A DNA stretch of 64,000 nt from an uncultured Candidatus Saccharibacteria bacterium (GTDB taxonomy: Bacteria; Patescibacteriota; UBA1384; DTJR01). The stretch is from positions 72,983 through 136,982 of the forward strand of contig CAZAOT010000003.1 in assembly GCA_964487045.1 (NCBI GenBank), written 5' to 3'. The notes under the pieces were generated by a model, which was given only the letters and a program-made list of their open reading frames with translations, did not search any database and was not told the DNA's origin. Each line of letters begins with the position of its first letter. The stretch's first letter is position 1. Of the stretch, positions 1-32,988 are shown in pieces. Position numbers and translations under genes: made by a program.

Positions 1-1010
1 ATTCAATTCCCCAAAAAATTTAAGCTCGTAAGGTATTTCAATCACAAAAGCGAGGAATAATTTTGTAAGTAAAATGAAAAAGATACCCCTGACAACCCCG
101 CGAAGCACTTTCTTGCGAATATTATCATTTCTTCTTGTTATCTCAGAGCGGACAAGAGCATTAAATCCATCTTTAGAGTTTAAGTTGTGCTCAAAATTGC
201 TAGTTCCGCGATGAATCGACTCGTAGATTATATTAAAAGCAGGCGAGGTCTTCTTGATATATTTATTAATCGGGGACTTCTTGTTGTAAATGATTTGCTT
301 TTCTACTTGCTCAAAATAACTTGGAAAATTCACTATAAACTCTTGACCTTCATTTTTCGGAACTTTCGGCCAAGACTTATAGTATCTAGAGAGGAGTTTA
401 TAGCGAAGCTGTTCCCAATCTTCTTTTACAATTACTTTTCTAATAGATATTTCGATTTGTATATCAACCAAATCCTCGGGCAATTCTTCGGAAAGATTAA
501 TATTTTGCGAATATATCTGCTTGCAGAAGGTCATATATTCATCTCTCTCGTCTGAATTGGAGAGCAGCTCTTCGATTTCGCAAGCAGCGAAGCTAACAAA
601 AAGGTCGGTAGAGGCTGTTTTAGAAAGATTGAGTTTGGCGTTTTCTCTAAAATAAGTATATTTGCGCAAGATACTGTCGATTTCTTCTGCTAAAGAGATC
701 GGTATAGTTTCGTTTTCGAAATATTTTGCCCAGACTAGCTCCTTGAGAAGAGCCAAGCCATTGCCTTGAGCGCCTAGATAGGTGCGTCTTTTGAGAATTC
801 GCTTTATCGCGTTTTTCAAAAATAAGTGCTCGTCTTGATATTCAATAGCATTTCGAAGTTTTTCGTAGTAAAAGGCCGCTTGGCCGACTGATTCATTTAC
901 TTTAATCTTTGCTTCTTGAGAGTCTTTATACTTAAGTGTCTTTTTTCCCTTGATGGCAGCTATAGTTTTTTGTAGATGGGCGTTCACCCCGTTAGAGAAA
1001 ATATTATTCA
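1..1010 (-). CDS. Hypothetical protein, 3'-truncated by the window edge (start ATG at 1010, reads off position 1); C-terminal TM helix; the plus-strand ORF 187..555 is its antisense shadow
   Basis: Open minus-strand frame with no stops from 1010 to 1; it begins MNNIFSNGVNAHLQK...; low GC matches the backbone. Confidence 0.5.
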
Positions 1011-1204
1011 TAAGTTTTTTTGATTTATTTATTTTGTATTATATTTGCTGACTTCTCTAACGGGGTTCATTGTTCTATTATTCGCCCCGTTAGAGATTGC
1101 GCAATCATTTTTCCTAACCTTTTGCTATCTTTATAAGATAGGCTTTATAATATGACTATTGGTTTGGTTTTTACGAAAGCTATGCTTTCTATCTCTAACG
1201 GGGT
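985..1204. repeat. Four copies of the 12-mer TCTCTAACGGGG / CCCCGTTAGAGA in the divergent intergenic region, at 987-998(rc), 1056-1067, 1085-1096(rc) and 1192-1203; the middle pair forms a 12-bp inverted repeat with a 17-nt spacer
   Basis: Direct reading; motif 1 overlaps codons 4-8 of the minus gene, and motif 4 lies just upstream of the ATG at 1211. Confidence 0.7.
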
Positions 1205-1210
1205 TAAATT

Positions 1211-1747
1211 ATGCTTATTCTATTAATTATTTTAGATTTATTTTGGTCGGGGGCAGCTTGGGTATATGACATGAGCAAACTCATAACACTCTCGCCCTTA
1301 ATTTGGCCGTTTGTGGCAGTCTGCCCGGTCTTTCCGCTTCTACTAGCCCTTGTTCTCCTGCAATTGTATCGCAAAAAATCCCCAAATCAATTTTTACTAG
1401 CTTTTGCGGCAGTTGGGAGTGTCATTTATGGATTGATAGCAATCCTGTTTTATCCAGTTGCAATGATATATCAAGGATTTTCTTGGAATGGTCTTGGGCA
1501 AATATTTTGGGTACTGGTTTATGGCGTGCAAGGAGCTTGGCTGATAAAAAAATACAAAATTAAAAAATTGCCTCTGTACACCTCTACTATTTTTTTTGGA
1601 GTGCAGATAATAGTGATAGATCTCTGGCAGAAAAGCTTTGGTTATTTCGATTTTTCAAATATTCCCTTTTTGATCTTAATTCTTGTAGTAATCTTAAGTT
1701 TTCTATTTTTTTCTATACTCCTTGATGTTTTAATGAGAAAGTGCTAA
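1211..1747 (+). CDS. Polytopic membrane protein, function unknown
   Basis: 178 aa, several hydrophobic helices, backbone composition. Confidence 0.5.
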   Translation: MLILLIILDLFWSGAAWVYDMSKLITLSPLIWPFVAVCPVFPLLLALVLLQLYRKKSPNQFLLAFAAVGSVIYGLIAILFYPVAMIYQGFSWNGLGQIFWVLVYGVQGAWLIKKYKIKKLPLYTSTIFFGVQIIVIDLWQKSFGYFDFSNIPFLILILVVILSFLFFSILLDVLMRKC

Positions 1748-2583: not shown

Positions 2584-3657
2584 CTAGGATTTGCCCCAAT
2601 CGAGATCGGGGTCTTCGAGGTCGAATGATCGTCCGCGGATGAATGGATAGATGCGGGTGATCGAGAGGTTGAGGTGCTCAATGGTTTCACGGCTGAGGAT
2701 TGGCTTGGGCTTGTTGCGAAGTGCCCCGAACAACCGATGGACTTCATAGTCATTCATCTGCAGCAGCAGAAGCGTTGGATTGGCGTCTTGGAAATGCTCA
2801 GAAGACGAGATGAACTCATAACAGCGTTCAAGCTCGCTGGCAAACGGCTTGCGATTAGCGTTGAGCGGTACGTAACAGTTAGCGTACATCCAATCGCGTA
2901 GTCGCCAGAATTCCTTGGCTTCGTCGCTCTTAGAGAAACTGATCCGACCTACCGATGCCGATTCCCTTACCAGGGCATTTGCGAAGTTGAGCAGCCTCTC
3001 TTCCTTGGTTCGTCCGAAGCACATCGCTTGATGGTCGGCCTCTTCGAAGCCTGCTCCGATCCGCAAACCATCCTCGATGTCAGAGAACATGTAGATTTTG
3101 TCTACGATGTTCACCAGGCGAAACTCCTGAGGAAGCCATATGTACTTCTGCCGAGAAGTGCCTGAGTGGTGGTAGATTCCAAGCAGAGTTTCATAGGCCA
3201 GGTCGAGACCTTTGCCCGAGTGTTCAATTCTCTGTAGGTTCAGGCAGGCGATAATGCGGTGGTCGATCGTCAAACCACACAGCTTCGAGATTGTCTCCTC
3301 TCCAAAATGACCGAAGGGTGCGTGGCCGGTGTCATGCCCTAGCCCAACCGCTTCTGTCAAGTACTCATTTAGCTTGAGGAACCAGGCTATGAGCTTAGCG
3401 AGACTTGCAACCTCCATGATGTGAAGCAGTCGATCATTACTGGTCGATTCTTCTCTTCCGATGAAGACTTGGGTCGTTCCATGCTTGCGAAACAGGGACT
3501 CGCTATTGCCGACCCAGTAAGCATCCTCAATGAAGCCTCGCTTACCGGTTGGTCTCCTTCGCCCTCCCTCTTTCTTTGGTCGTCGTCCGCGACTCATCTC
3601 TTCTTGGAACCGTAGGTGCGCCAAGCACCCACGATATCTCTTGTCGAGGTTTAACAC
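2584..3657 (-). CDS. HD-domain phosphohydrolase, dGTP triphosphohydrolase-like (GTG start at 3657 after AAGGAGG); GC-rich cassette b
   Basis: Motif LGHDTGHAPFGHFGEE preceded by HIMEVASLAKLIA (dGTPase-like HD signature); promoter-like TTGAAT-N17-TACAAT upstream (minus) at ~3675-3705; GGCCGCC hairpin downstream at ~2530-2575. Confidence 0.6.
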   Translation of the reverse strand: MLNLDKRYRGCLAHLRFQEEMSRGRRPKKEGGRRRPTGKRGFIEDAYWVGNSESLFRKHGTTQVFIGREESTSNDRLLHIMEVASLAKLIAWFLKLNEYLTEAVGLGHDTGHAPFGHFGEETISKLCGLTIDHRIIACLNLQRIEHSGKGLDLAYETLLGIYHHSGTSRQKYIWLPQEFRLVNIVDKIYMFSDIEDGLRIGAGFEEADHQAMCFGRTKEERLLNFANALVRESASVGRISFSKSDEAKEFWRLRDWMYANCYVPLNANRKPFASELERCYEFISSSEHFQDANPTLLLLQMNDYEVHRLFGALRNKPKPILSRETIEHLNLSITRIYPFIRGRSFDLEDPDLDWGKS

Positions 3658-3728
3658 TAGGACGCACCTCCTTATCGTGGGCTGCCTAGGATTGTAGAGA
3701 ACTTATATTCTTAATTCAAGACCAAGTA

Positions 3729-4154
3729 TTATGAAGCGTCTTCTTTCGTTTCAACGTATCTGCCAAGATCATCACGATCTTCAGCCTTGGCGCCCTTTGG
3801 CAATAGTTTTACTGAAATTTTAAATTTTCGAGTCGAGCCGTCTTGATCGGTGATCATGTCAGTTTTCTTTTCATTATAAAAATCCATCAACTCGACCGAG
3901 AGAATATCTCTTAGGGTCTTTATCTCATCCAGGTTTTCCCTAATGTCTTCGGCGAGCTTGGCATTTCCTTCTTGATTAAAAATTGCATCTCTGACTTCTT
4001 TGCGTTTTTTTGCAGCCGATTTTGCCTCCTCGGCAATTTGAGTGTAGGAGGCATCATTTTCAAGGGCGGAGCGAAGTAGCTCTTTAGCTTTTTTATTTTC
4101 TTCTTCTAGTTTTTCAATAATTCCGATTCTTTCTTTGATGACCGATAAATCCAT
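3729..4154 (-). CDS. Hypothetical KE-rich protein (likely start MDLSV at 4154, RBS GGAGG 5 nt upstream)
   Basis: ORF; the internal ATG has a good SD; the upstream part of the track ORF overlaps a GC-rich palindrome. Confidence 0.4.
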   Translation of the reverse strand: MDLSVIKERIGIIEKLEEENKKAKELLRSALENDASYTQIAEEAKSAAKKRKEVRDAIFNQEGNAKLAEDIRENLDEIKTLRDILSVELMDFYNEKKTDMITDQDGSTRKFKISVKLLPKGAKAEDRDDLGRYVETKEDAS

Positions 4155-10826: not shown

Positions 10827-11003
10827 CTAAATAGTTAACACCCATTTTATAAAGTCCAAACACAAATTTTTCAAAATTAGTTCAATCTGAGCCACAGGTG
10901 AAATTTCGCGTTCCACCCGCGAAATCCCCAGAAATAAAATTGCCCCGTTAGGGGCTATTTTAATTATTTAGAGATGTTTCCAGTCGTGTGATATATTAGT
11001 CCT

Positions 11004-16448: not shown

Positions 16449-16473
16449 GTTGGCCAAAATAGGGAGGCAGATT

Positions 16474-17739
16474 GTGGACAAAGAAGCGATCCAAGGCGCC
16501 CGCAGGGCGCTTCTGCTCAAGAAGCTTGAAGTAGCATCAACGACCAAGGAATGCACCCTTGCGTTCCAGGGTCTCAAGCTCTACAGAGATGACCTTTCGA
16601 TTGTCGCCACTCGTAAGAGAGCGATTGAGCTCGCAGCTTCGGCAGGCGACATGGATGAGGTTCGTCGCTTTCCGTATGATGTGGGTATCTTCTCTCTGGG
16701 AGATCAGGCTTCCGAGTTCTTTCGTAAGGCCATGCTGCTTTGCAGGCCTGAAGAAGTATACGACTTCACAGGCAACTTCGGCTATTACGCCGATGAAGTT
16801 GTTAGCTTCCTTGTCGAGGGGCTTACCGATCCGCTCAAGCTGACTCGACTAGCGATGCGACTCGGAGCGGAGGGTCTGCTTGAGCGCGGACAGGAAGTGA
16901 TCGCTCGGGCTGCTGAACTGGCTGCAAGCTGGGAAGTGTGCGGTTATGTCGGGACGATACACTATGCGCCGCTTCCGACAGGGTTTCTGACCATGGCCGT
17001 CCTTCTCGCTGAGGGGCAGAAGGGTTACGATGCTCCTCTCGAAGTTTGTGGGTGGATGAAGGCTTCGCTCAACGACCCGCTCGAATTCAGACAAGCAGCG
17101 GCTGTTGCCGAGCTGCTTGATGCGCCAAACAAGCGTATCAGGCGGGTAGCCGGAGAGCGGATCAGGCAGGCTTACCAGGAGAAACTGAGCGGCCAAGATG
17201 GCGACTTCTATATCCAAAGCGCCTGGAACGTCGTTTGCGATGCCCGCGATGCGCTTCCGGAACTGGCTGCAGAGCTGACCGCTGATCTCGTGGTGCGTCT
17301 GACAGATGCGGTACCAGCCTGTCAGGACTTTTCGGAGGCAAAGTCGCATCTTGAAGTCGCTTCCGCAATGGAGGACTTCGGGATCGATGGAGTCTACTGG
17401 CCGGCAGCCATGCGTGCGATGGAGCTGGCAGAGGGCTGTGATGATATCCTGGCGTTGGTGCGCCTTGGCATTCATGTCCAGGAGCTCACCGAGGCTGTCC
17501 TGGTAATGGCTGCAACCGAAGATGATATCATTGCAGTCATACAGCGCAACCCGAACTTCTCTGGTGAGTGGACGTTGCCTCTTTGCGAGCGGATCTTCGA
17601 CTATCGGCGCCAGAGGGCGCAGACGATCGAGGACTTCATGATTCTGCATCACCTGACCAAGGACCCGGTCAAACTGGCCGAGGTCGAGGATCGCATCCAG
17701 GAGCTCATCGCTCCATACCATACCGAGCCTGAGGAGTAA
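16474..17739 (+). CDS. Hypothetical alpha-helical 421-aa protein, cassette f gene 3 (likely GTG start after AGGGAGG)
   Basis: Long GC-rich ORF; the antisense ORF 16849..17754 is judged spurious. Confidence 0.45.
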   Translation: MDKEAIQGARRALLLKKLEVASTTKECTLAFQGLKLYRDDLSIVATRKRAIELAASAGDMDEVRRFPYDVGIFSLGDQASEFFRKAMLLCRPEEVYDFTGNFGYYADEVVSFLVEGLTDPLKLTRLAMRLGAEGLLERGQEVIARAAELAASWEVCGYVGTIHYAPLPTGFLTMAVLLAEGQKGYDAPLEVCGWMKASLNDPLEFRQAAAVAELLDAPNKRIRRVAGERIRQAYQEKLSGQDGDFYIQSAWNVVCDARDALPELAAELTADLVVRLTDAVPACQDFSEAKSHLEVASAMEDFGIDGVYWPAAMRAMELAEGCDDILALVRLGIHVQELTEAVLVMAATEDDIIAVIQRNPNFSGEWTLPLCERIFDYRRQRAQTIEDFMILHHLTKDPVKLAEVEDRIQELIAPYHTEPEE

Positions 17740-17765
17740 CTTCCCCTGGTTCATGGCTCTACAAC

Positions 17766-30137: not shown

Positions 30138-31556
30138 ATGAAAAAAGGTTTAGCGTCAAAGCTTAATCTATTGGCGCACCCTACTTATTTGTTGATCTTT
30201 TTGACTCTAGGGTTGATTGTCAGTGTAAATTTACCCTTATGGCTAATTTATTTATCTTTTTACCTCACTTTTATTGGCATTTTGTTGGTTCTATTTAAAA
30301 TTAAAAGTGGTGCTTGTTTAGTTTTTCTTGGTTTTGGAATTTTGATCGGAAGCTATCATTTATATAGTGTCGATCATCCCCTTCCAAGCGGTTGTGATGA
30401 TGCGAAAGTTCTTTCAAGGGCAAAGAAATTTAAGACAGGGTTTGTATATAAAATCAAGGGTTCTAAAGAAGTTCTTCTCTACAGCCAAAGCGATGATTTC
30501 AAGATCGCTGATAAAGTGCGAGTATGTTTTGGTAAGCCACTTTTACTCGAGGCAAGGGATCGCAGATATCTTCTATCTCAACTACATAGCCAAAACCTGA
30601 TGGATGCAAGTGAAATAAAGTTACTTGAGCCGGGCAAGGGGGTGAAGAATTATTTAGAACTTCTTAGCGATAAATTTGCAGGCGATGCTGCAAAACTTTT
30701 CTCGGGAGATCAGGGCACTTTAGCTTATGGTGTGATTTTTGGCGGCGGTGATTTTTCAAAAGAGCTCAAGAATGACTTTAAGCGAAGTGGCACAACTCAC
30801 ATCGTTGCAGTCTCGGGTTACAACGTATCGATTATCACTGCTTGGATGTTTGATTTTCTGCGCCAAATAAGTAAGAATTTTTCGGGAATATTTTCTGTCT
30901 TGGCGCTAGTGGGGTTTTATTTTATTACTGGCGGATCGGCTTCGGTTCTTCGCGCTTCGGTCATGGGAGTGATTATTCTTCTTACTAAATTTATAGGTCG
31001 CAAGGTTTCGCCTCTTCATTTATTAATGCTAGCGGCGAGTTTGATTTTAGCTTTTAATCCTTTTGCTCTTTATGATTGGGGATTTCAACTTTCCTTCTTG
31101 GCAACAGCCGGATTATTTTTTCTTGCACCTGCGATTGAAAGCTTGCTCTCTAGAGTAAAATTCAATAAAAGTTTAATTAAGACTTTTAGCGAAACGATCG
31201 GTGCACAAATTTTTGTCCTGCCGATACTTGTGGCAAATTTTGGTTCATTTTCTATCATCTCGCCACTTACTAATCTTTTGATCCTGCCCCTTATTCCCCT
31301 TTTAATGAGCTTAGTCTTTATTTCACTTATAGGTTTTACCCTCTATCATCCGCTGGGAATATTTTTATCTGGAATAACAAAAATATTATTAGCTTATGTA
31401 ATTTGGATCGTAAAATTAAGTTCACTGCTGCCGTTTGCGAGTCTTAATTATAAACTTGATCCCTTGATCGCTATTCCTTTTGGATATGGCATAATCATAC
31501 TATTAACTTATTACTTAAGAAGAAGATATCTTGTTAAATCAAAACAAAATATTTGA
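30138..31556 (+). CDS. comEC: ComEC/Rec2 DNA-uptake channel, membrane (DUF4131 plus competence) part
   Basis: Polytopic; GTTHIVAVSGYNVSIITAW competence-domain region. Confidence 0.65.
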   Translation: MKKGLASKLNLLAHPTYLLIFLTLGLIVSVNLPLWLIYLSFYLTFIGILLVLFKIKSGACLVFLGFGILIGSYHLYSVDHPLPSGCDDAKVLSRAKKFKTGFVYKIKGSKEVLLYSQSDDFKIADKVRVCFGKPLLLEARDRRYLLSQLHSQNLMDASEIKLLEPGKGVKNYLELLSDKFAGDAAKLFSGDQGTLAYGVIFGGGDFSKELKNDFKRSGTTHIVAVSGYNVSIITAWMFDFLRQISKNFSGIFSVLALVGFYFITGGSASVLRASVMGVIILLTKFIGRKVSPLHLLMLAASLILAFNPFALYDWGFQLSFLATAGLFFLAPAIESLLSRVKFNKSLIKTFSETIGAQIFVLPILVANFGSFSIISPLTNLLILPLIPLLMSLVFISLIGFTLYHPLGIFLSGITKILLAYVIWIVKLSSLLPFASLNYKLDPLIAIPFGYGIIILLTYYLRRRYLVKSKQNI

Positions 31557-32394
31557 CTACCTGCTGCTAGCAGTTGTTTTAGTTGGTCTTTTTCTGTATT
31601 CGACAATATATCAAAATGCTCAAGCCAACATTGACCCTGCCTCAGCCAAAATTAGTTTTTTGGATGTCGGCCAAGCGGATTGCGCATTAGTTAATTTGCC
31701 AAATAATAAGCAAATTCTGATCGATGCAGGCAAATCGTCAGACGTTGTCTCGAAAATAAGATCGAGGATGCCGGCCTTTGATTCGGAGATAGAAGCGGTT
31801 TTCTTGAGTCATCCAGATAGTGACCATGTTGGAGGGTTTGTCTCGGTTCTTAATTCTTACAAAGTCGACAAAGTTTATCTGAACACCGATCAATCTGACT
31901 CTAAGACTTTTGACGCGATTTTAGCTGAAATGGATAAGCAAAAAATTTCTCACGAAGTGATCGGCTCTGGACGAGACGTGTATATAGAAGATCTGCGAAT
32001 CAAAACGCTTTGGCCTTCGGAAAATAGTGGTTCCTTAAGTGAAAATAATCGCTCCTTGGTGCTAAAGCTAATGATCAAATCGGGAGTCGCTCTTTTTACG
32101 GGAGATCTCGAGATAGAAGGGCAGAATAAATTAATGAGTGAATATAAGGAAGAAGATCTTTTGGCAGATTTGTATAAAGTTCCACATCACGGAGCCTCTG
32201 GAGCGTGGAATGAAAGCTTTGCCCAGAAGGTTAAACCCAAAAATGCTGTGATTTCGGTAGGTAATAATTCATATGGTCATCCTGGGCAAAGTACAATTAC
32301 GGGACTTGAGAAGATAGGAAGTAAGGTTTATCGCACAGATCAGCTAGGTACGATTGATTTTGTCCTAAGTGAAGCGGGATTTGTGTCAAAATAA
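31531..32394 (+). CDS. ComEC-type metallo-beta-lactamase domain protein with its own N-terminal anchor (separate ORF, overlaps the previous one by 26 nt)
   Basis: ISFLDVGQADC..HPDSDHVGG MBL motifs as in the ComEC C-terminal domain. Confidence 0.6.
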   Translation: MLNQNKIFDYLLLAVVLVGLFLYSTIYQNAQANIDPASAKISFLDVGQADCALVNLPNNKQILIDAGKSSDVVSKIRSRMPAFDSEIEAVFLSHPDSDHVGGFVSVLNSYKVDKVYLNTDQSDSKTFDAILAEMDKQKISHEVIGSGRDVYIEDLRIKTLWPSENSGSLSENNRSLVLKLMIKSGVALFTGDLEIEGQNKLMSEYKEEDLLADLYKVPHHGASGAWNESFAQKVKPKNAVISVGNNSYGHPGQSTITGLEKIGSKVYRTDQLGTIDFVLSEAGFVSK

Positions 32395-32404
32395 TACTTA
32401 AAAA

Positions 32405-32440
32405 AGAGGAAAGCCCCCCGCCATGCGGCAGGGGGCCTTG
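32405..32440 (-). terminator. Terminator for cassette h on the minus strand (GGCCCCCTGCCGCATGGCGGGGGGC followed by TTTCCTCTTTTTT)
   Basis: Read on the reverse complement. Confidence 0.55.
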
Positions 32441-32461
32441 TTTCCCGGTGCGATGAAAGTC

Positions 32462-32908
32462 TCACCAGCGTCCCCCCGGGTAGGGGTTGTTGGCGCGCTC
32501 GAAGTTCCGCTGAGCGCGCTCCAGGTCTCGGTAGCCGCTCGACAGGTAGCCGAGCCGCCGCCGCTCCGCTTCGATGGCGGAGATTTGGTTGTTGTACCCA
32601 CCCTGAGGCAGGTACCCGCCTTGGTAGCTGTAGCCACCCTGGGCGACGTAGCCGTTGCCGCAGCCATAGTTGCGCTGCTGGCAACCGCAGATAGTGCCGA
32701 TCGGCCTGATTTGGAAGCAGGCCGAACAGCGGACGAGCTGCGCCTGCGGGGCGAAGTAACCGCCACCGCAGGTGGGCATCGGCATCGGGCGATAGCCCGG
32801 GCCGCACCCACCACCGCTGCCACCGACCGAGAGGATCACGGTGATCCTGGGGCCGGCGCTCGCCGTCGAAACGGCGGCGATTACGACGAGAACGATTGGC
32901 ATCGTCCT
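32462..32908 (-). CDS. Small secreted Gly/Cys/Tyr-rich protein (signal MRTMPIVLVVIAAVSTASA), GC-rich cassette h
   Basis: Chosen among overlapping frames in GC-rich DNA by signal peptide, downstream terminator, and CGCQQ/GGY repeats. Confidence 0.4.
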   Translation of the reverse strand, partial: RTMPIVLVVIAAVSTASAGPRITVILSVGGSGGGCGPGYRPMPMPTCGGGYFAPQAQLVRCSACFQIRPIGTICGCQQRNYGCGNGYVAQGGYSYQGGYLPQGGYNNQISAIEAERRRLGYLSSGYRDLERAQRNFERANNPYPGGRW

Positions 32909-32988
32909 CATTTTGGACACCTCTTTCAAAGGTGCTGGAATTGACTGATTCGGGTAACTATACCACAATTACCCGAGAAAGTCAAGGT

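What the first reader, a model, noticed from the sequence alone, without database searches (positions are those of the whole stretch)
985..1204. Fourfold 12-mer TCTCTAACGGGG array spanning a divergent promoter region
Four exact copies of TCTCTAACGGGG or its complement lie within 220 bp between divergently transcribed genes. They alternate in orientation as ←→←→. The central pair forms a 12-bp inverted repeat with a 17-nt spacer. The outer copies overlap codons 4-8 of the minus-strand gene and the SD region of the plus-strand gene. Four exact 12-mers are very unlikely by chance. This is an operator array for coordinated or autoregulated divergent transcription, or the ends of a degenerate miniature element.
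Basis: seen in the sequence. Interest (0 to 1): 0.5.

Follow-up and report, generated by a model that had tools for sequence, protein, structure and literature searches.

The report
Two miniature GIY-YIG-type mobile elements
The four 12-base repeats are the inverted ends of two tiny, gene-less mobile DNA elements that inserted into a 17-base gap between two genes. In many unrelated bacteria the same ends flank a very small nuclease gene, which points to a mobile-element family I could not find described.

Summary
Four exact TCTCTAACGGGG copies lie at 987(-), 1054(+), 1085(-) and 1192(+), and no other copy with one mismatch or fewer occurs in the 64 kb.

They are not an operator array. They are the 12-bp terminal inverted repeats of two adjacent miniature elements: unit A (987-1065) and unit B (1085-1203).

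Main evidence:
- **Link to a nuclease gene.** In Endomicrobia, Omnitrophota, Planctomycetota, Patescibacteria and metagenomes, the same inverted 12-mers bound an 86-aa GIY-YIG nuclease gene. The left repeat sits 7-11 nt before the ATG. The right repeat encodes the last four codons (SLTG). The whole element is about 279 bp.
- **Target-site duplications.** Eight of 28 such units carry perfect 4-nt direct repeats on their outer flanks (P = 3e-5). Unit A has TTCA on both sides.
- **Empty site.** The closest relatives have only 17 bp between the two start codons. Deleting both units plus one flank copy each restores a 17-bp spacer that aligns without gaps.
- **Remnant of the parent.** Unit B's right end keeps 24 nt of the nuclease gene's 3' end.

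No GIY-YIG gene lies in the window, so both copies are non-autonomous.

The closest described system is Ssn/SRM (Chenal 2025), but the published SRM pattern is not met. How the elements transpose is inferred, not shown.

The parts
983..986 (.). TTCA, left copy of the 4-bp target-site duplication of unit A
   Evidence: The same TTCA abuts the other end at 1066-1069. Such matches are enriched across 28 units (8 observed, 1.35 expected, P=3e-5).
987..1065 (.). Unit A: 79-bp gene-less miniature element (12-bp TIR, 55-nt AT-rich interior, 12-bp TIR)
   Evidence: Perfect inverted 12-mers. Flanked by TTCA on both sides. Removing it restores the ancestral spacer.
987..998 (-). Copy 1 of TCTCTAACGGGG, left TIR of unit A
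1054..1065 (+). Copy 2, right TIR of unit A
985..987 (-). GTG at the position of the ancestral ATG of the minus-strand gene. Its first base is the outermost base of copy 1.
   Evidence: Relatives read CAT where the window reads CAC. Homologous N-termini are MN(D/E)HLQ.. against window (V/M)NAHLQ.
1009..1011 (-). In-frame ATG inside unit A, a possible new start adding 8 residues (MNNIFSNG)
   Evidence: Translation. The extension is absent from homologues.
1066..1084 (.). Remnant of the ancestral 17-bp intergenic spacer. It contains the right TTCA copy (1066-1069), the orphaned ancestral start codon CAT (1068-1070) and the left flank TTCG of unit B (1081-1084).
   Evidence: Gapless alignment of the reconstructed empty site with L048 and L047.
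1085..1203 (.). Unit B: 119-bp gene-less miniature element, probably an internally deleted GIY-YIG cassette
   Evidence: Perfect inverted 12-mers (13 nt). The left end matches the cassette consensus at 14 of 15 positions and the right end over 24 nt. Removing it plus one 4-nt flank restores a 17-bp spacer.
1085..1096 (-). Copy 3, left TIR of unit B
1177..1203 (+). Right end of unit B. It is homologous to the 3' end of GIY-YIG genes (AAGC..GCTTTCTA + TCTCTAACGGGG, corresponding to ..KRFLSLTG) and includes copy 4 (1192-1203).
   Evidence: nhmmer with a DNA profile of 7 full elements: model positions 255-278, E=3e-4.
1204..1207 (.). TTAA, right flank of unit B. The left flank is TTCG, so 2 of 4 bases match: a decayed or imperfect duplication.
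1122..1151 (+). Sigma-70-like hexamers TTGCTA-18-TATAAT inside unit B, pointing at the DUF1405 gene
   Evidence: The number of such sites is not above the shuffle expectation, so this is a lead only.
1211..1747 (+). DUF1405 membrane protein gene (neighbour, not part of the elements)
1..987 (-). 5' part of a roughly 519-aa gene with no Pfam match (neighbour). It runs off the window start.

Best explanation
The four 12-mers are the terminal inverted repeats (TIRs) of two miniature, gene-less transposable elements: unit A (987-1065) and unit B (1085-1203). Each inserted separately, 11 bp apart, into what was a 17-bp spacer between the start codons of two divergent genes. Each insertion duplicated about 4 bp of target.

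The elements are non-autonomous relatives of a cassette of about 279 bp found in several bacterial phyla. That cassette reads: CCCCGTTAGAGA, 7-11 nt, then an 86-aa single-domain GIY-YIG nuclease gene whose last four codons (TCT CTA ACG GGG = SLTG) are the other TIR. Its stop codon comes from the flanking target (TGA or TAA).

**Shown:**
- the TIR identity
- the link to the nuclease gene
- the flank duplications
- the empty site in relatives
- the absence of a nuclease gene in this window

**Inferred:**
- The 12-mer is the site recognised by the cognate GIY-YIG nuclease.
- That nuclease, made from a full copy elsewhere in the genome now or in the past, moved these units.
- Single-stranded DNA in which the two TIRs pair may be the substrate, by analogy with Ssn nucleases.

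**Consequences for the host.** Unit A cut the minus-strand gene off from its original ATG. That gene must now start at a GTG or at an ATG carried by the element. Both genes' former promoter regions were pushed about 200 bp away, so transcription may now start inside the units.
For: **Same 12-mer and layout next to GIY-YIG genes**
- A DNA scan of one genome per species for TCTCTAACGGGG-N5-35-CCCCGTTAGAGA gave 2 loci, where my own rough estimate of the chance expectation is about 0.1. A metagenome scan gave 14.
- Seven of the 14 metagenome loci (L010, L017, and four copies of one element, L012, L013, L019, L020) and the Endomicrobia genome locus L004 carry a GIY-YIG gene inside one '<- ... ->' interval.

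**Unbiased test from the protein side**
- Five independent elements were chosen by protein similarity alone (L023, L024/25, L026, L027-36, L037-46).
- All five have the inverted 12-mer 7-11 nt before the ATG and as the last four codons.

**The 12-mer is constrained as DNA**
- Across 7 full elements, third codon positions are 7% invariant and 46% pairwise identical, while both TIRs are 94% identical.
- TIR variants co-vary within a unit: GGGA/TCCC, CCTC../..GAGG, TTTC../..GAAA.

**The element ends exactly after GGGG**
- The stop codon lies in the flank.
- Proteins are extended beyond SLTG when the flank has no stop.

**Target-site duplication**
- Eight of 28 non-redundant units have perfect 4-nt direct repeats at their outer flanks against 1.35 expected (P=3e-5).
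- Unit A has TTCA on both sides.

**Empty site**
- Relatives L048 and L047 have CAT-17 nt-ATG.
- The window with both units and one flank copy each removed gives a 17-nt spacer. It aligns without gaps, 13/17 and 12/17 identical.

**Other points**
- Unit B's ends match the cassette beyond the TIRs: 24 nt at the right end (E=3e-4) and 14/15 at the left.
- L012 shows a full element plus a short unit interrupting a RhuM gene.
- No GIY-YIG ORF is in the window by tblastn or by family HMM.
Against: - No cognate GIY-YIG gene was found in the 64 kb. The rest of the genome (a 232.8-kb contig and more) could not be read, so action in trans is unproven.
- GIY-YIG nucleases are not known to do strand transfer. 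No transposition chemistry that gives 4-bp duplications is established for them.
- Only 8 of 28 units have perfect flank repeats. Unit B's flanks match at 2 of 4 bases.
- Unit A's interior shows no similarity to the cassette.
- The DNA-pattern scans required an inner '-> <-' pair, so how often units lie adjacent to each other is biased by how they were found.
- The relatives used for the empty site are only 66-71% identical in the neighbouring protein.
Confidence: 0.82

Rival explanations
1. Operator array. A host transcription factor binds the four 12-mers as two inverted pairs and co-regulates or autoregulates the two divergent genes.
For: The sites span the whole divergent promoter region. 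Copy 4 sits at Shine-Dalgarno distance from the plus-strand gene, and a sigma-70-like promoter lies between copies 3 and 4.
Against: - Four orthologous intergenic regions lack the motif, and three of them are only 17-28 bp long.
- The identical 12-mer bounds GIY-YIG genes in unrelated phyla.
- Flank duplications and an empty-site reconstruction are present.
- The motif occurs nowhere else in 64 kb.
- Neither neighbouring gene encodes a DNA-binding protein.
Confidence: 0.03
2. Invertible promoter switch. Copies 3 and 4 (a 13-bp perfect inverted repeat around 93 bp holding TTGCTA-18-TATAAT) are recombinase sites. Flipping the segment would redirect the promoter from the DUF1405 gene to the minus-strand gene.
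For: An inverted repeat flanking a promoter-like segment is the classical inverton layout.
Against: - The repeats are the TIRs of a mobile cassette with target duplications.
- The promoter-like match is no more than shuffles give.
- I saw no invertase among the ORFs I annotated, but I did not screen the window for one.
- The orientation pattern is explained by two adjacent insertions.
Confidence: 0.03
3. Domesticated nuclease-target repeats, like NTS/SRM repeats with Ssn nucleases. On this reading the copies are kept because a GIY-YIG single-strand nuclease cuts at them on incoming or replicating single-stranded DNA, which would modulate recombination or transformation around these genes.
For: Ssn nucleases cut single-stranded DNA next to repeats that flank their own genes and cluster around other genes (PMC11893778). 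The window encodes ComEC. The region folds strongly as single-stranded DNA (z=-6.6). This reading is compatible with a mobile origin.
Against: - There is one cluster in 64 kb, not a dense genome-wide distribution.
- No nuclease gene is in the window.
- The 12-mer is not a hairpin in itself and fails the published SRM pattern.
- There is no evidence of selection to retain the copies.
Confidence: 0.08
4. The 12-mers are ends recognised by an unrelated transposase (for example an IS family that makes 4-bp duplications). On this reading the GIY-YIG gene is only cargo of a mobile insertion cassette, and the window copies are ordinary MITEs of that IS.
For: TIRs plus a 4-bp duplication are the hallmark of DDE transposition, which GIY-YIG enzymes are not known to perform (established knowledge). 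Gene-less units with unrelated interiors exist.
Against: - In every full element the TIR is fused to the last four codons of the GIY-YIG gene and sits 7-11 nt before its ATG. This holds across phyla even though synonymous sites are saturated.
- No transposase gene bounded by the 12-mer was seen in any locus.
- The one Y1 transposase nearby (L017) has its own different palindromes.
Confidence: 0.07
5. A structured RNA (attenuator or small RNA) in which segments 1:2 and 3:4 pair, or alternatively 2:3 and 1:4.
For: Four mutually complementary 12-nt segments allow alternative foldings. The minimum-energy and centroid structures differ in exactly this way.
Against: - There is no Rfam match.
- The region is not conserved in orthologous loci.
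- Exact 12-mers shared with protein-coding gene ends in other phyla point to a DNA-level origin.
Confidence: 0.02

Closest known systems
Ssn single-strand nucleases with their SRM/NTS repeats (NTS-ssnA-NTS), Chenal et al., Nat Commun 2025, PMC11893778
   Same: A single-domain GIY-YIG protein of roughly 90 aa has its gene flanked on both sides by copies of a short repeat in inverted orientation. Gene-less copies of the repeat are scattered or clustered elsewhere. The layout resembles an insertion sequence, and the family spans many phyla (searches compared).
   Different: - The repeat here is a plain, non-palindromic 12-bp TIR, not a 20-50-nt hairpin with a GTCAT-type leader. The published SRM pattern gives no hit.
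- The right repeat is part of the coding sequence.
- 4-bp flank duplications and an empty site are seen here. The parts of the Ssn paper I read propose mobility only as a hypothesis and mention neither.
- The protein's nearest solved relatives are UPF0213 proteins (1zg2, E=6.5e-9). Membership of cd10448 could not be tested.
Bacterial MITEs (for example Correia elements of Neisseria, or IS-derived MITEs)
   Same: Short (79 and 119 bp), non-coding, with terminal inverted repeats and short target duplications. They lie in an intergenic region next to gene starts and may carry outward promoters. They share their ends with a larger coding element.
   Different: The coding partner is only about 279 bp and encodes a GIY-YIG nuclease, not a DDE, serine or HUH transposase. 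The TIRs are very short (12 bp) yet essentially invariant across phyla.
REP/BIME repeats and their RAYT (Y1 HUH) transposases
   Same: A small nuclease-type gene is flanked by inverted copies of a short repeat. Gene-less repeats form clusters with alternating orientation (BIME-like <- -> <- ->).
   Different: REPs are imperfect palindromes tagged by GTAG or CGTC and are handled by a tyrosine HUH enzyme. They show no target duplication. Here the repeat is not a palindrome and the enzyme is a GIY-YIG.
IS200/IS605 family (single-strand 'peel and paste')
   Same: Very small elements with tetranucleotide target preference (TTAC or TCAA type, compared with TNNA here). Single-stranded DNA intermediates are plausible.
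   Different: IS200/IS605 elements have no TIRs and no duplications, use subterminal hairpins, and encode a Y1 transposase.
Free-standing and intron-borne GIY-YIG homing endonucleases (I-TevI, Seg proteins)
   Same: Selfish GIY-YIG nuclease genes that spread between genomes. There is a weak profile hit to TIGR01453, below its cut-off.
   Different: Homing enzymes carry a separate DNA-binding domain, home to one allelic site by recombination, and have no TIRs, duplications or miniature derivatives.

Membership tests
MITE (miniature inverted-repeat transposable element) | Terminal inverted repeats at both ends | tested here: met
   Perfect repeats of 12 bp (unit A; 14 bp counting one extra base on each side) and 13 bp (unit B).
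MITE (miniature inverted-repeat transposable element) | Short direct target-site duplication abutting the ends | tested here: met
   Unit A has TTCA on both sides. Unit B matches at 2 of 4 bases. Across 28 units, 8 are perfect against 1.35 expected (P=3e-5).
MITE (miniature inverted-repeat transposable element) | Small size and no coding capacity | tested here: met
   The units are 79 and 119 bp. There is no GIY-YIG ORF in the region or the window.
MITE (miniature inverted-repeat transposable element) | Ends shared with a larger coding element | tested here: met
   The same 12-mers bound 86-aa GIY-YIG genes. Unit B's right end is homologous over 24 nt.
MITE (miniature inverted-repeat transposable element) | Presence/absence polymorphism (an empty site in relatives) | tested here: met
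   The reconstructed 17-bp spacer aligns without gaps to L048 and L047.
MITE (miniature inverted-repeat transposable element) | Multiple dispersed copies in the same genome | tested here: inconclusive
   Only these two adjacent units occur in 64 kb. The rest of the genome could not be fetched.
Ssn/SRM system (cd10448 GIY-YIG nuclease plus SRM repeats) | Repeat matches the SRM pattern HGTCWYN(0-2)YYVSBRHN(0-5)WNVSBRGN(0-2)RNCYNB (a hairpin with a GTC leader) | tested here: not met
   The regular expression gives 0 hits in the window, including 900-1300. The 12-mer is not a palindrome.
Ssn/SRM system (cd10448 GIY-YIG nuclease plus SRM repeats) | Associated protein is a single-domain GIY-YIG of about 90 aa whose gene is flanked 5' and 3' by the repeat | tested here: met
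   This holds for the parent cassette in other genomes: 86 aa, PF01541 only, repeat at both ends. It does not apply inside this window.
Ssn/SRM system (cd10448 GIY-YIG nuclease plus SRM repeats) | Protein assigned to cd10448, or blastp E<1e-10 to N. meningitidis SsnA (CAX49033.1) | not testable with these tools
   Neither CDD nor the SsnA sequence was available. The nearest solved relatives are UPF0213 proteins, which hints at a different GIY-YIG branch.
Ssn/SRM system (cd10448 GIY-YIG nuclease plus SRM repeats) | Site-specific cleavage of single-stranded DNA next to the repeat | not testable with these tools
   This needs a biochemical assay.
Transcription-factor operator array | Motif conserved at orthologous promoters and/or recurring at other promoters of the same genome | tested here: not met
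   Absent from L001, L003, L047 and L048 at the orthologous site. No other copy in 64 kb.
REP/BIME with RAYT | Imperfect palindromic unit with a GTAG/CGTC tag, associated with a Y1 HUH transposase | tested here: not met
   The 12-mer has no internal palindrome. The associated gene is a GIY-YIG. The single Y1 gene seen (L017) has different palindromes.
Invertible promoter (inverton) | Both orientations present in a population, with a nearby or dedicated invertase | not tested
   Read-level data were not available. I saw no invertase among the ORFs annotated, but I did not screen the window for one.

The most novel reading that the evidence does not exclude
The cassette of about 279 bp (12-bp TIR, 86-aa GIY-YIG gene ending in the other TIR, stop codon borrowed from the target) may be an autonomous transposon. 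Its only protein would be a GIY-YIG nuclease. It would insert at TNNA sites with a 4-bp duplication and spawn miniature derivatives such as the two in this window. That would make it the smallest autonomous-looking mobile element in bacteria and a new transposition chemistry, distinct from the described Ssn/SRM pairs.
Probability: 0.35. Interest if true: 0.85.

Novelty: new variant of a known kind. Interest (0 to 1): 0.62.

Why it matters
**For this genome.** An apparent regulatory motif is really two selfish insertions. They rebuilt a 17-bp divergent gene junction, cut one gene off from its original start codon, and probably supplied new start or promoter signals.

**More broadly.** The finding exposes a cross-phylum family of extremely small elements whose only gene is a single-domain GIY-YIG nuclease. 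The family has the classical signs of transposition: invariant TIRs, 4-bp duplications, empty sites and miniature derivatives.

The only related description I found (Ssn/SRM, 2025) raised mobility as a hypothesis and concerns different repeats. If the nuclease itself drives movement, that would be a new kind of transposase. It would also be a compact, sequence-specific DNA tool. Finally, it gives annotators a simple rule: 'TCTCTAACGGGG' pairs mark these elements, and many 'GIY-YIG nuclease family proteins' belong to them.

Tried and rejected
- **Fetching the source contig.** The exact DUF1405 protein is not in the contig index. Another window protein gave only short Logan contigs. So the 12-mer could not be counted genome-wide.
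- **Rfam and tRNA scans.** Nothing was found near the site.
- **Terminator scan.** No hits. The promoter-like hits are no more than chance.
- **Viral contigs.** No hairpin pattern and no relative of the GIY-YIG protein.
- **Plasmids.** No tblastn match.
- **Literature.** The exact 12-mer appears only in an unrelated arthropod paper. Searches on GIY-YIG combined with TIR, MITE, TSD, COG2827 or UPF0213 found no description of this element.
- **Published SRM pattern.** Applied to the window and to L001: no hits.
- **A Y1 (IS200/RAYT-like) transposase as the mobiliser.** I checked the one next to 12-mer units in L017. It carries its own, different palindromes.
- **The 2-mismatch hit at 10943.** It is an unrelated terminator-like hairpin.
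- **Similarity of unit A's interior to the cassette.** None beyond the TIR.
Full report
**1. The observation**

The window holds four exact copies of TCTCTAACGGGG at 987-998(-), 1054-1065(+), 1085-1096(-) and 1192-1203(+). No other copy with one mismatch or fewer occurs in the 64 kb. The three 2-mismatch hits elsewhere are what shuffles give (mean 2.9). One of them, at 10943, is an unrelated terminator-like hairpin. The 9-mers TCTAACGGG and CTCTAACGG occur only at the four sites.

The copies lie between the start of a minus-strand gene and the DUF1405 gene at 1211-1747(+). The minus-strand gene is about 519 aa in relatives and has no Pfam match.

Small corrections to the finding:
- The central spacer is 19 nt, not 17.
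- If the ATG at 1011 is the start, copy 1 covers codons 5-9.

**2. The motif is not conserved at the orthologous site**

The same divergent gene pair occurs in relatives found through the DUF1405 protein.

| Locus | Start-to-start spacer | 12-mer present? |
|---|---|---|
| L048 (71% identical protein) | 17 bp | no |
| L047 (66%) | 17 bp | no |
| L003 | 28 bp | no |
| L001 | 147 bp, filled with different GC-rich hairpin repeats | no |

A regulatory site shared by the two genes should be conserved at this position. It is not.

**3. The same 12-mer elsewhere**

I scanned one genome per species for TCTCTAACGGGG-N5-35-CCCCGTTAGAGA. My own rough estimate of the chance expectation is about 0.1 hits. 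The scan found an Endomicrobia MAG and an Oscillatoria MAG. A metagenome scan found 14 contigs. The viral collection gave none.

In these loci the 12-mer again forms clusters of alternating orientation. In L004, L010, L012/13/19/20 and L017, one '<- ... ->' interval holds a GIY-YIG nuclease gene of about 86-99 aa. CCCCGTTAGAGA lies 7-11 nt before the ATG. The last four codons, TCT CTA ACG GGG (SLTG), are the other copy, followed at once by TGA or TAA.

In L012 the whole structure (3527-3928) interrupts the 3' part of a RhuM-like gene. The C-terminal reading frame of that gene resumes after the last copy.

**4. Unbiased test from the protein side**

The L012 protein has more than 1,100 relatives at 90% clustering. 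Nearly all end in ..KRFLSLTG. Source names include Flavobacteriales, Omnitrophota, Patescibacteria and Planctomycetota. In the 50%-identity library, 723 clusters score E <= 1e-10.

I picked five independent elements by protein similarity alone:
- L023, Patescibacteria
- L024/25, Omnitrophota
- L026, Planctomycetota, wedged between lepA and a signal-peptidase gene
- L027-36
- L037-46

All five carry the inverted 12-mer at both ends, which gives an element of 277-281 bp.

Across seven full elements, third codon positions are only 7% invariant and 46% pairwise identical. Both repeats are 94% identical. The 12-mer is therefore constrained as DNA and not only as a coding sequence.

Variants co-vary between the two ends of one unit: GGGA with TCCC in L023 and L037, CCTC.. 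with ..GAGG, and TTTC.. with ..GAAA.

The element ends exactly after GGGG. The stop codon is flank sequence, and proteins run on past SLTG when the flank offers no stop.

**5. Signs of transposition**

I collected 28 non-redundant '<- X ->' units, with interiors of 5 to 257 nt. Eight have identical 4-nt direct repeats abutting both ends: TTCA, TTAA, TCAA, TTTA, TTGA, TGAA, TAAA. Shuffling the right flanks among units gives 1.35 on average (P = 3e-5). The flanks favour TNNA.

Gene-less units are diverse. One 65-bp subfamily (L004, L010, L017, L024) has two GC-rich hairpins with compensatory changes.

**6. The window copies are two such units**

- **Unit A** (987-1065) has TTCA on both sides.
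- **Unit B** (1085-1203) has TTCG on the left and TTAA on the right.

A DNA profile of the seven full elements matches unit B's right end over 24 nt (AAGC..GCTTTCTATCTCTAACGGGG, E = 3e-4). This is the 3' end of the nuclease gene. The same profile matches unit B's left end at 14 of 15 positions. Unit B therefore looks like an internally deleted cassette. Unit A shares only the repeats.

Removing unit A with one TTCA, and unit B with one 4-nt flank, gives CAT-TGTTCTATTATTAAATT-ATG. This 17-nt spacer aligns without gaps to L048 (13/17 identical) and L047 (12/17). That is an empty-site reconstruction for two precise insertions 11 bp apart.

No GIY-YIG gene is present in the 64 kb, by tblastn or by family HMM. 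Both units are therefore non-autonomous here.

DnaK places the organism among Candidatus Berkelbacteria, in the CPR/Patescibacteria.

**7. Consequences for the neighbouring genes**

These points follow from the sequence, but their effects are inferred.

Unit A inserted at TTCA, which overlaps the ancestral ATG of the minus-strand gene. The intact CAT now sits orphaned at 1068-1070. At the old position the gene reads GTG (987-985), whose first base is the outermost base of copy 1. An in-frame ATG inside unit A (1011-1009) would add MNNIFSNG.

Sigma-70-like hexamers lie in unit B (1122-1151). A TATAAT on the minus strand lies in unit A. The promoter scan is not above chance, so these are leads only.

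As single-stranded DNA the region folds far better than shuffles (z = -6.6). Two pairing schemes are possible: 1:2 with 3:4, or 1:4 with 2:3.

**8. Mechanism**

The following are shown:
- the repeats are TIRs of mobile units
- they are tied to a GIY-YIG gene
- the units insert with roughly 4-bp duplications

The following are inferred:
- The GIY-YIG protein recognises the 12-mer and drives movement. The argument is that the gene and the repeats have stayed fused across phyla despite saturated synonymous sites, and the element has no room for anything else.
- Single-stranded DNA with paired TIRs may be the substrate, by analogy with Ssn nucleases.

GIY-YIG enzymes are not known to join DNA. The integration step is therefore unexplained, and a helper such as host repair or another transposase cannot be excluded. 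I put about 0.85 on the identity as miniature elements of this family, and about 0.5 on the GIY-YIG protein being the mobilising enzyme.

**9. Comparison with what is known**

The nearest described system is Ssn/SRM (PMC11893778). In it, single-domain cd10448 GIY-YIG proteins cut single-stranded DNA beside hairpin repeats (NTS/SRM). Those repeats flank the nuclease gene and cluster elsewhere in the genome. The authors noted the resemblance to an insertion sequence and to REP/RAYT, but only as a hypothesis.

This case differs in four ways:
- The repeat is a non-palindromic 12-bp TIR and fails the published SRM pattern.
- One TIR is coding sequence.
- Duplications and an empty site are seen.
- The protein's nearest solved relatives are UPF0213 proteins.

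Membership of cd10448 could not be tested. I therefore say that it works like Ssn/SRM and like MITEs, but I file it only as a MITE-type element, whose defining features were tested and met apart from copy number in this genome.

Searches of the paper library found neither the 12-mer nor a description of TIR-bounded GIY-YIG cassettes.

**10. Verdict**

The operator reading is wrong, and the 'miniature element' alternative is right. The window feature itself is an ordinary kind of thing (two MITEs). Its family appears undescribed and unusual, so interest is moderate to high.

Noticed in passing
L001 8126-8272: In another relative, the same divergent-gene junction is occupied by different GC-rich hairpin repeats (GTCATCGCGAGC..GCGGCGATC, GTCATCCCGAC..GGAGGGATC, ..CGCTCGCAATGAC). 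By eye they resemble NTS/SRM-type repeats of the Ssn paper, but the published SRM pattern gives no hit. This junction seems to be a recurrent landing site for small repeats.
   Followed up: partly
L012 3527-3928; L027 1363-1640 (also L028-L036): Full GIY-YIG cassettes sit inside or at the 3' end of RhuM-family genes in two different element lineages, at different positions in the gene. Whether RhuM genes are a preferred target or merely share mobile islands with the cassettes is unknown.
   Followed up: partly
Proteins P0071, P0100, P0123 (C-termini ..FLSRTASLRDKSLTG): Some family members carry an extra 9-residue insert before SLTG. I have not examined its DNA. My guess is that it is a second, inverted, degenerate copy of the 12-mer, that is, a tiny hairpin inside the coding end.
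   Followed up: no
L004 4048-4112, L010 298-362, L017 1456-1520, L024 17896-17960: A 65-bp gene-less subfamily: TIR, 'taagac' hairpin 1, hairpin 2, TIR. The two hairpins keep their pairing through compensatory changes between loci, which suggests the structure itself is selected.
   Followed up: partly
L005 7719-7768 (Oscillatoria MAG): The 12-mer pair here is part of a longer 23-bp perfect palindrome (..TCTCTAACGGGGGAGCAAT..ATTGCTCCCCCGTTAGAGA..). No GIY-YIG gene lies in the 8 kb fetched. It may be a different repeat family or a chance relative.
   Followed up: no
window 10895-10960: Two adjacent hairpins lie in an intergenic region: GAAATTTCGCG-N7-CGCGAAATC, then GCCCC-GTTA-GGGGC followed by a T-rich run (terminator-like). 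The second is the 2-mismatch 'hit' to the 12-mer and is unrelated to it.
   Followed up: partly
window 16450-17739 and 32340-32968: GC-rich islands (about 55% and 49%, against about 40% elsewhere) with long overlapping ORFs on both strands. The 429-aa ORF at 16450 and the other three ORFs tested there (16849-17754, 32423-32944, 32340-32807) have no Pfam match. Possibly acquired genes.
   Followed up: partly
window 30138-31556: A ComEC competence protein gene. The organism can probably take up single-stranded DNA, which matters if the GIY-YIG family acts on single strands as Ssn does.
   Followed up: no
L017 623-1345: A 240-aa Y1 (IS200/RAYT-like, HUH motif HYHLL) transposase gene is flanked by its own palindrome, GGAGGTTGAACCTCC. 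It lies in a contig that is also crowded with 12-mer units and two MazF-like toxin genes.
   Followed up: partly
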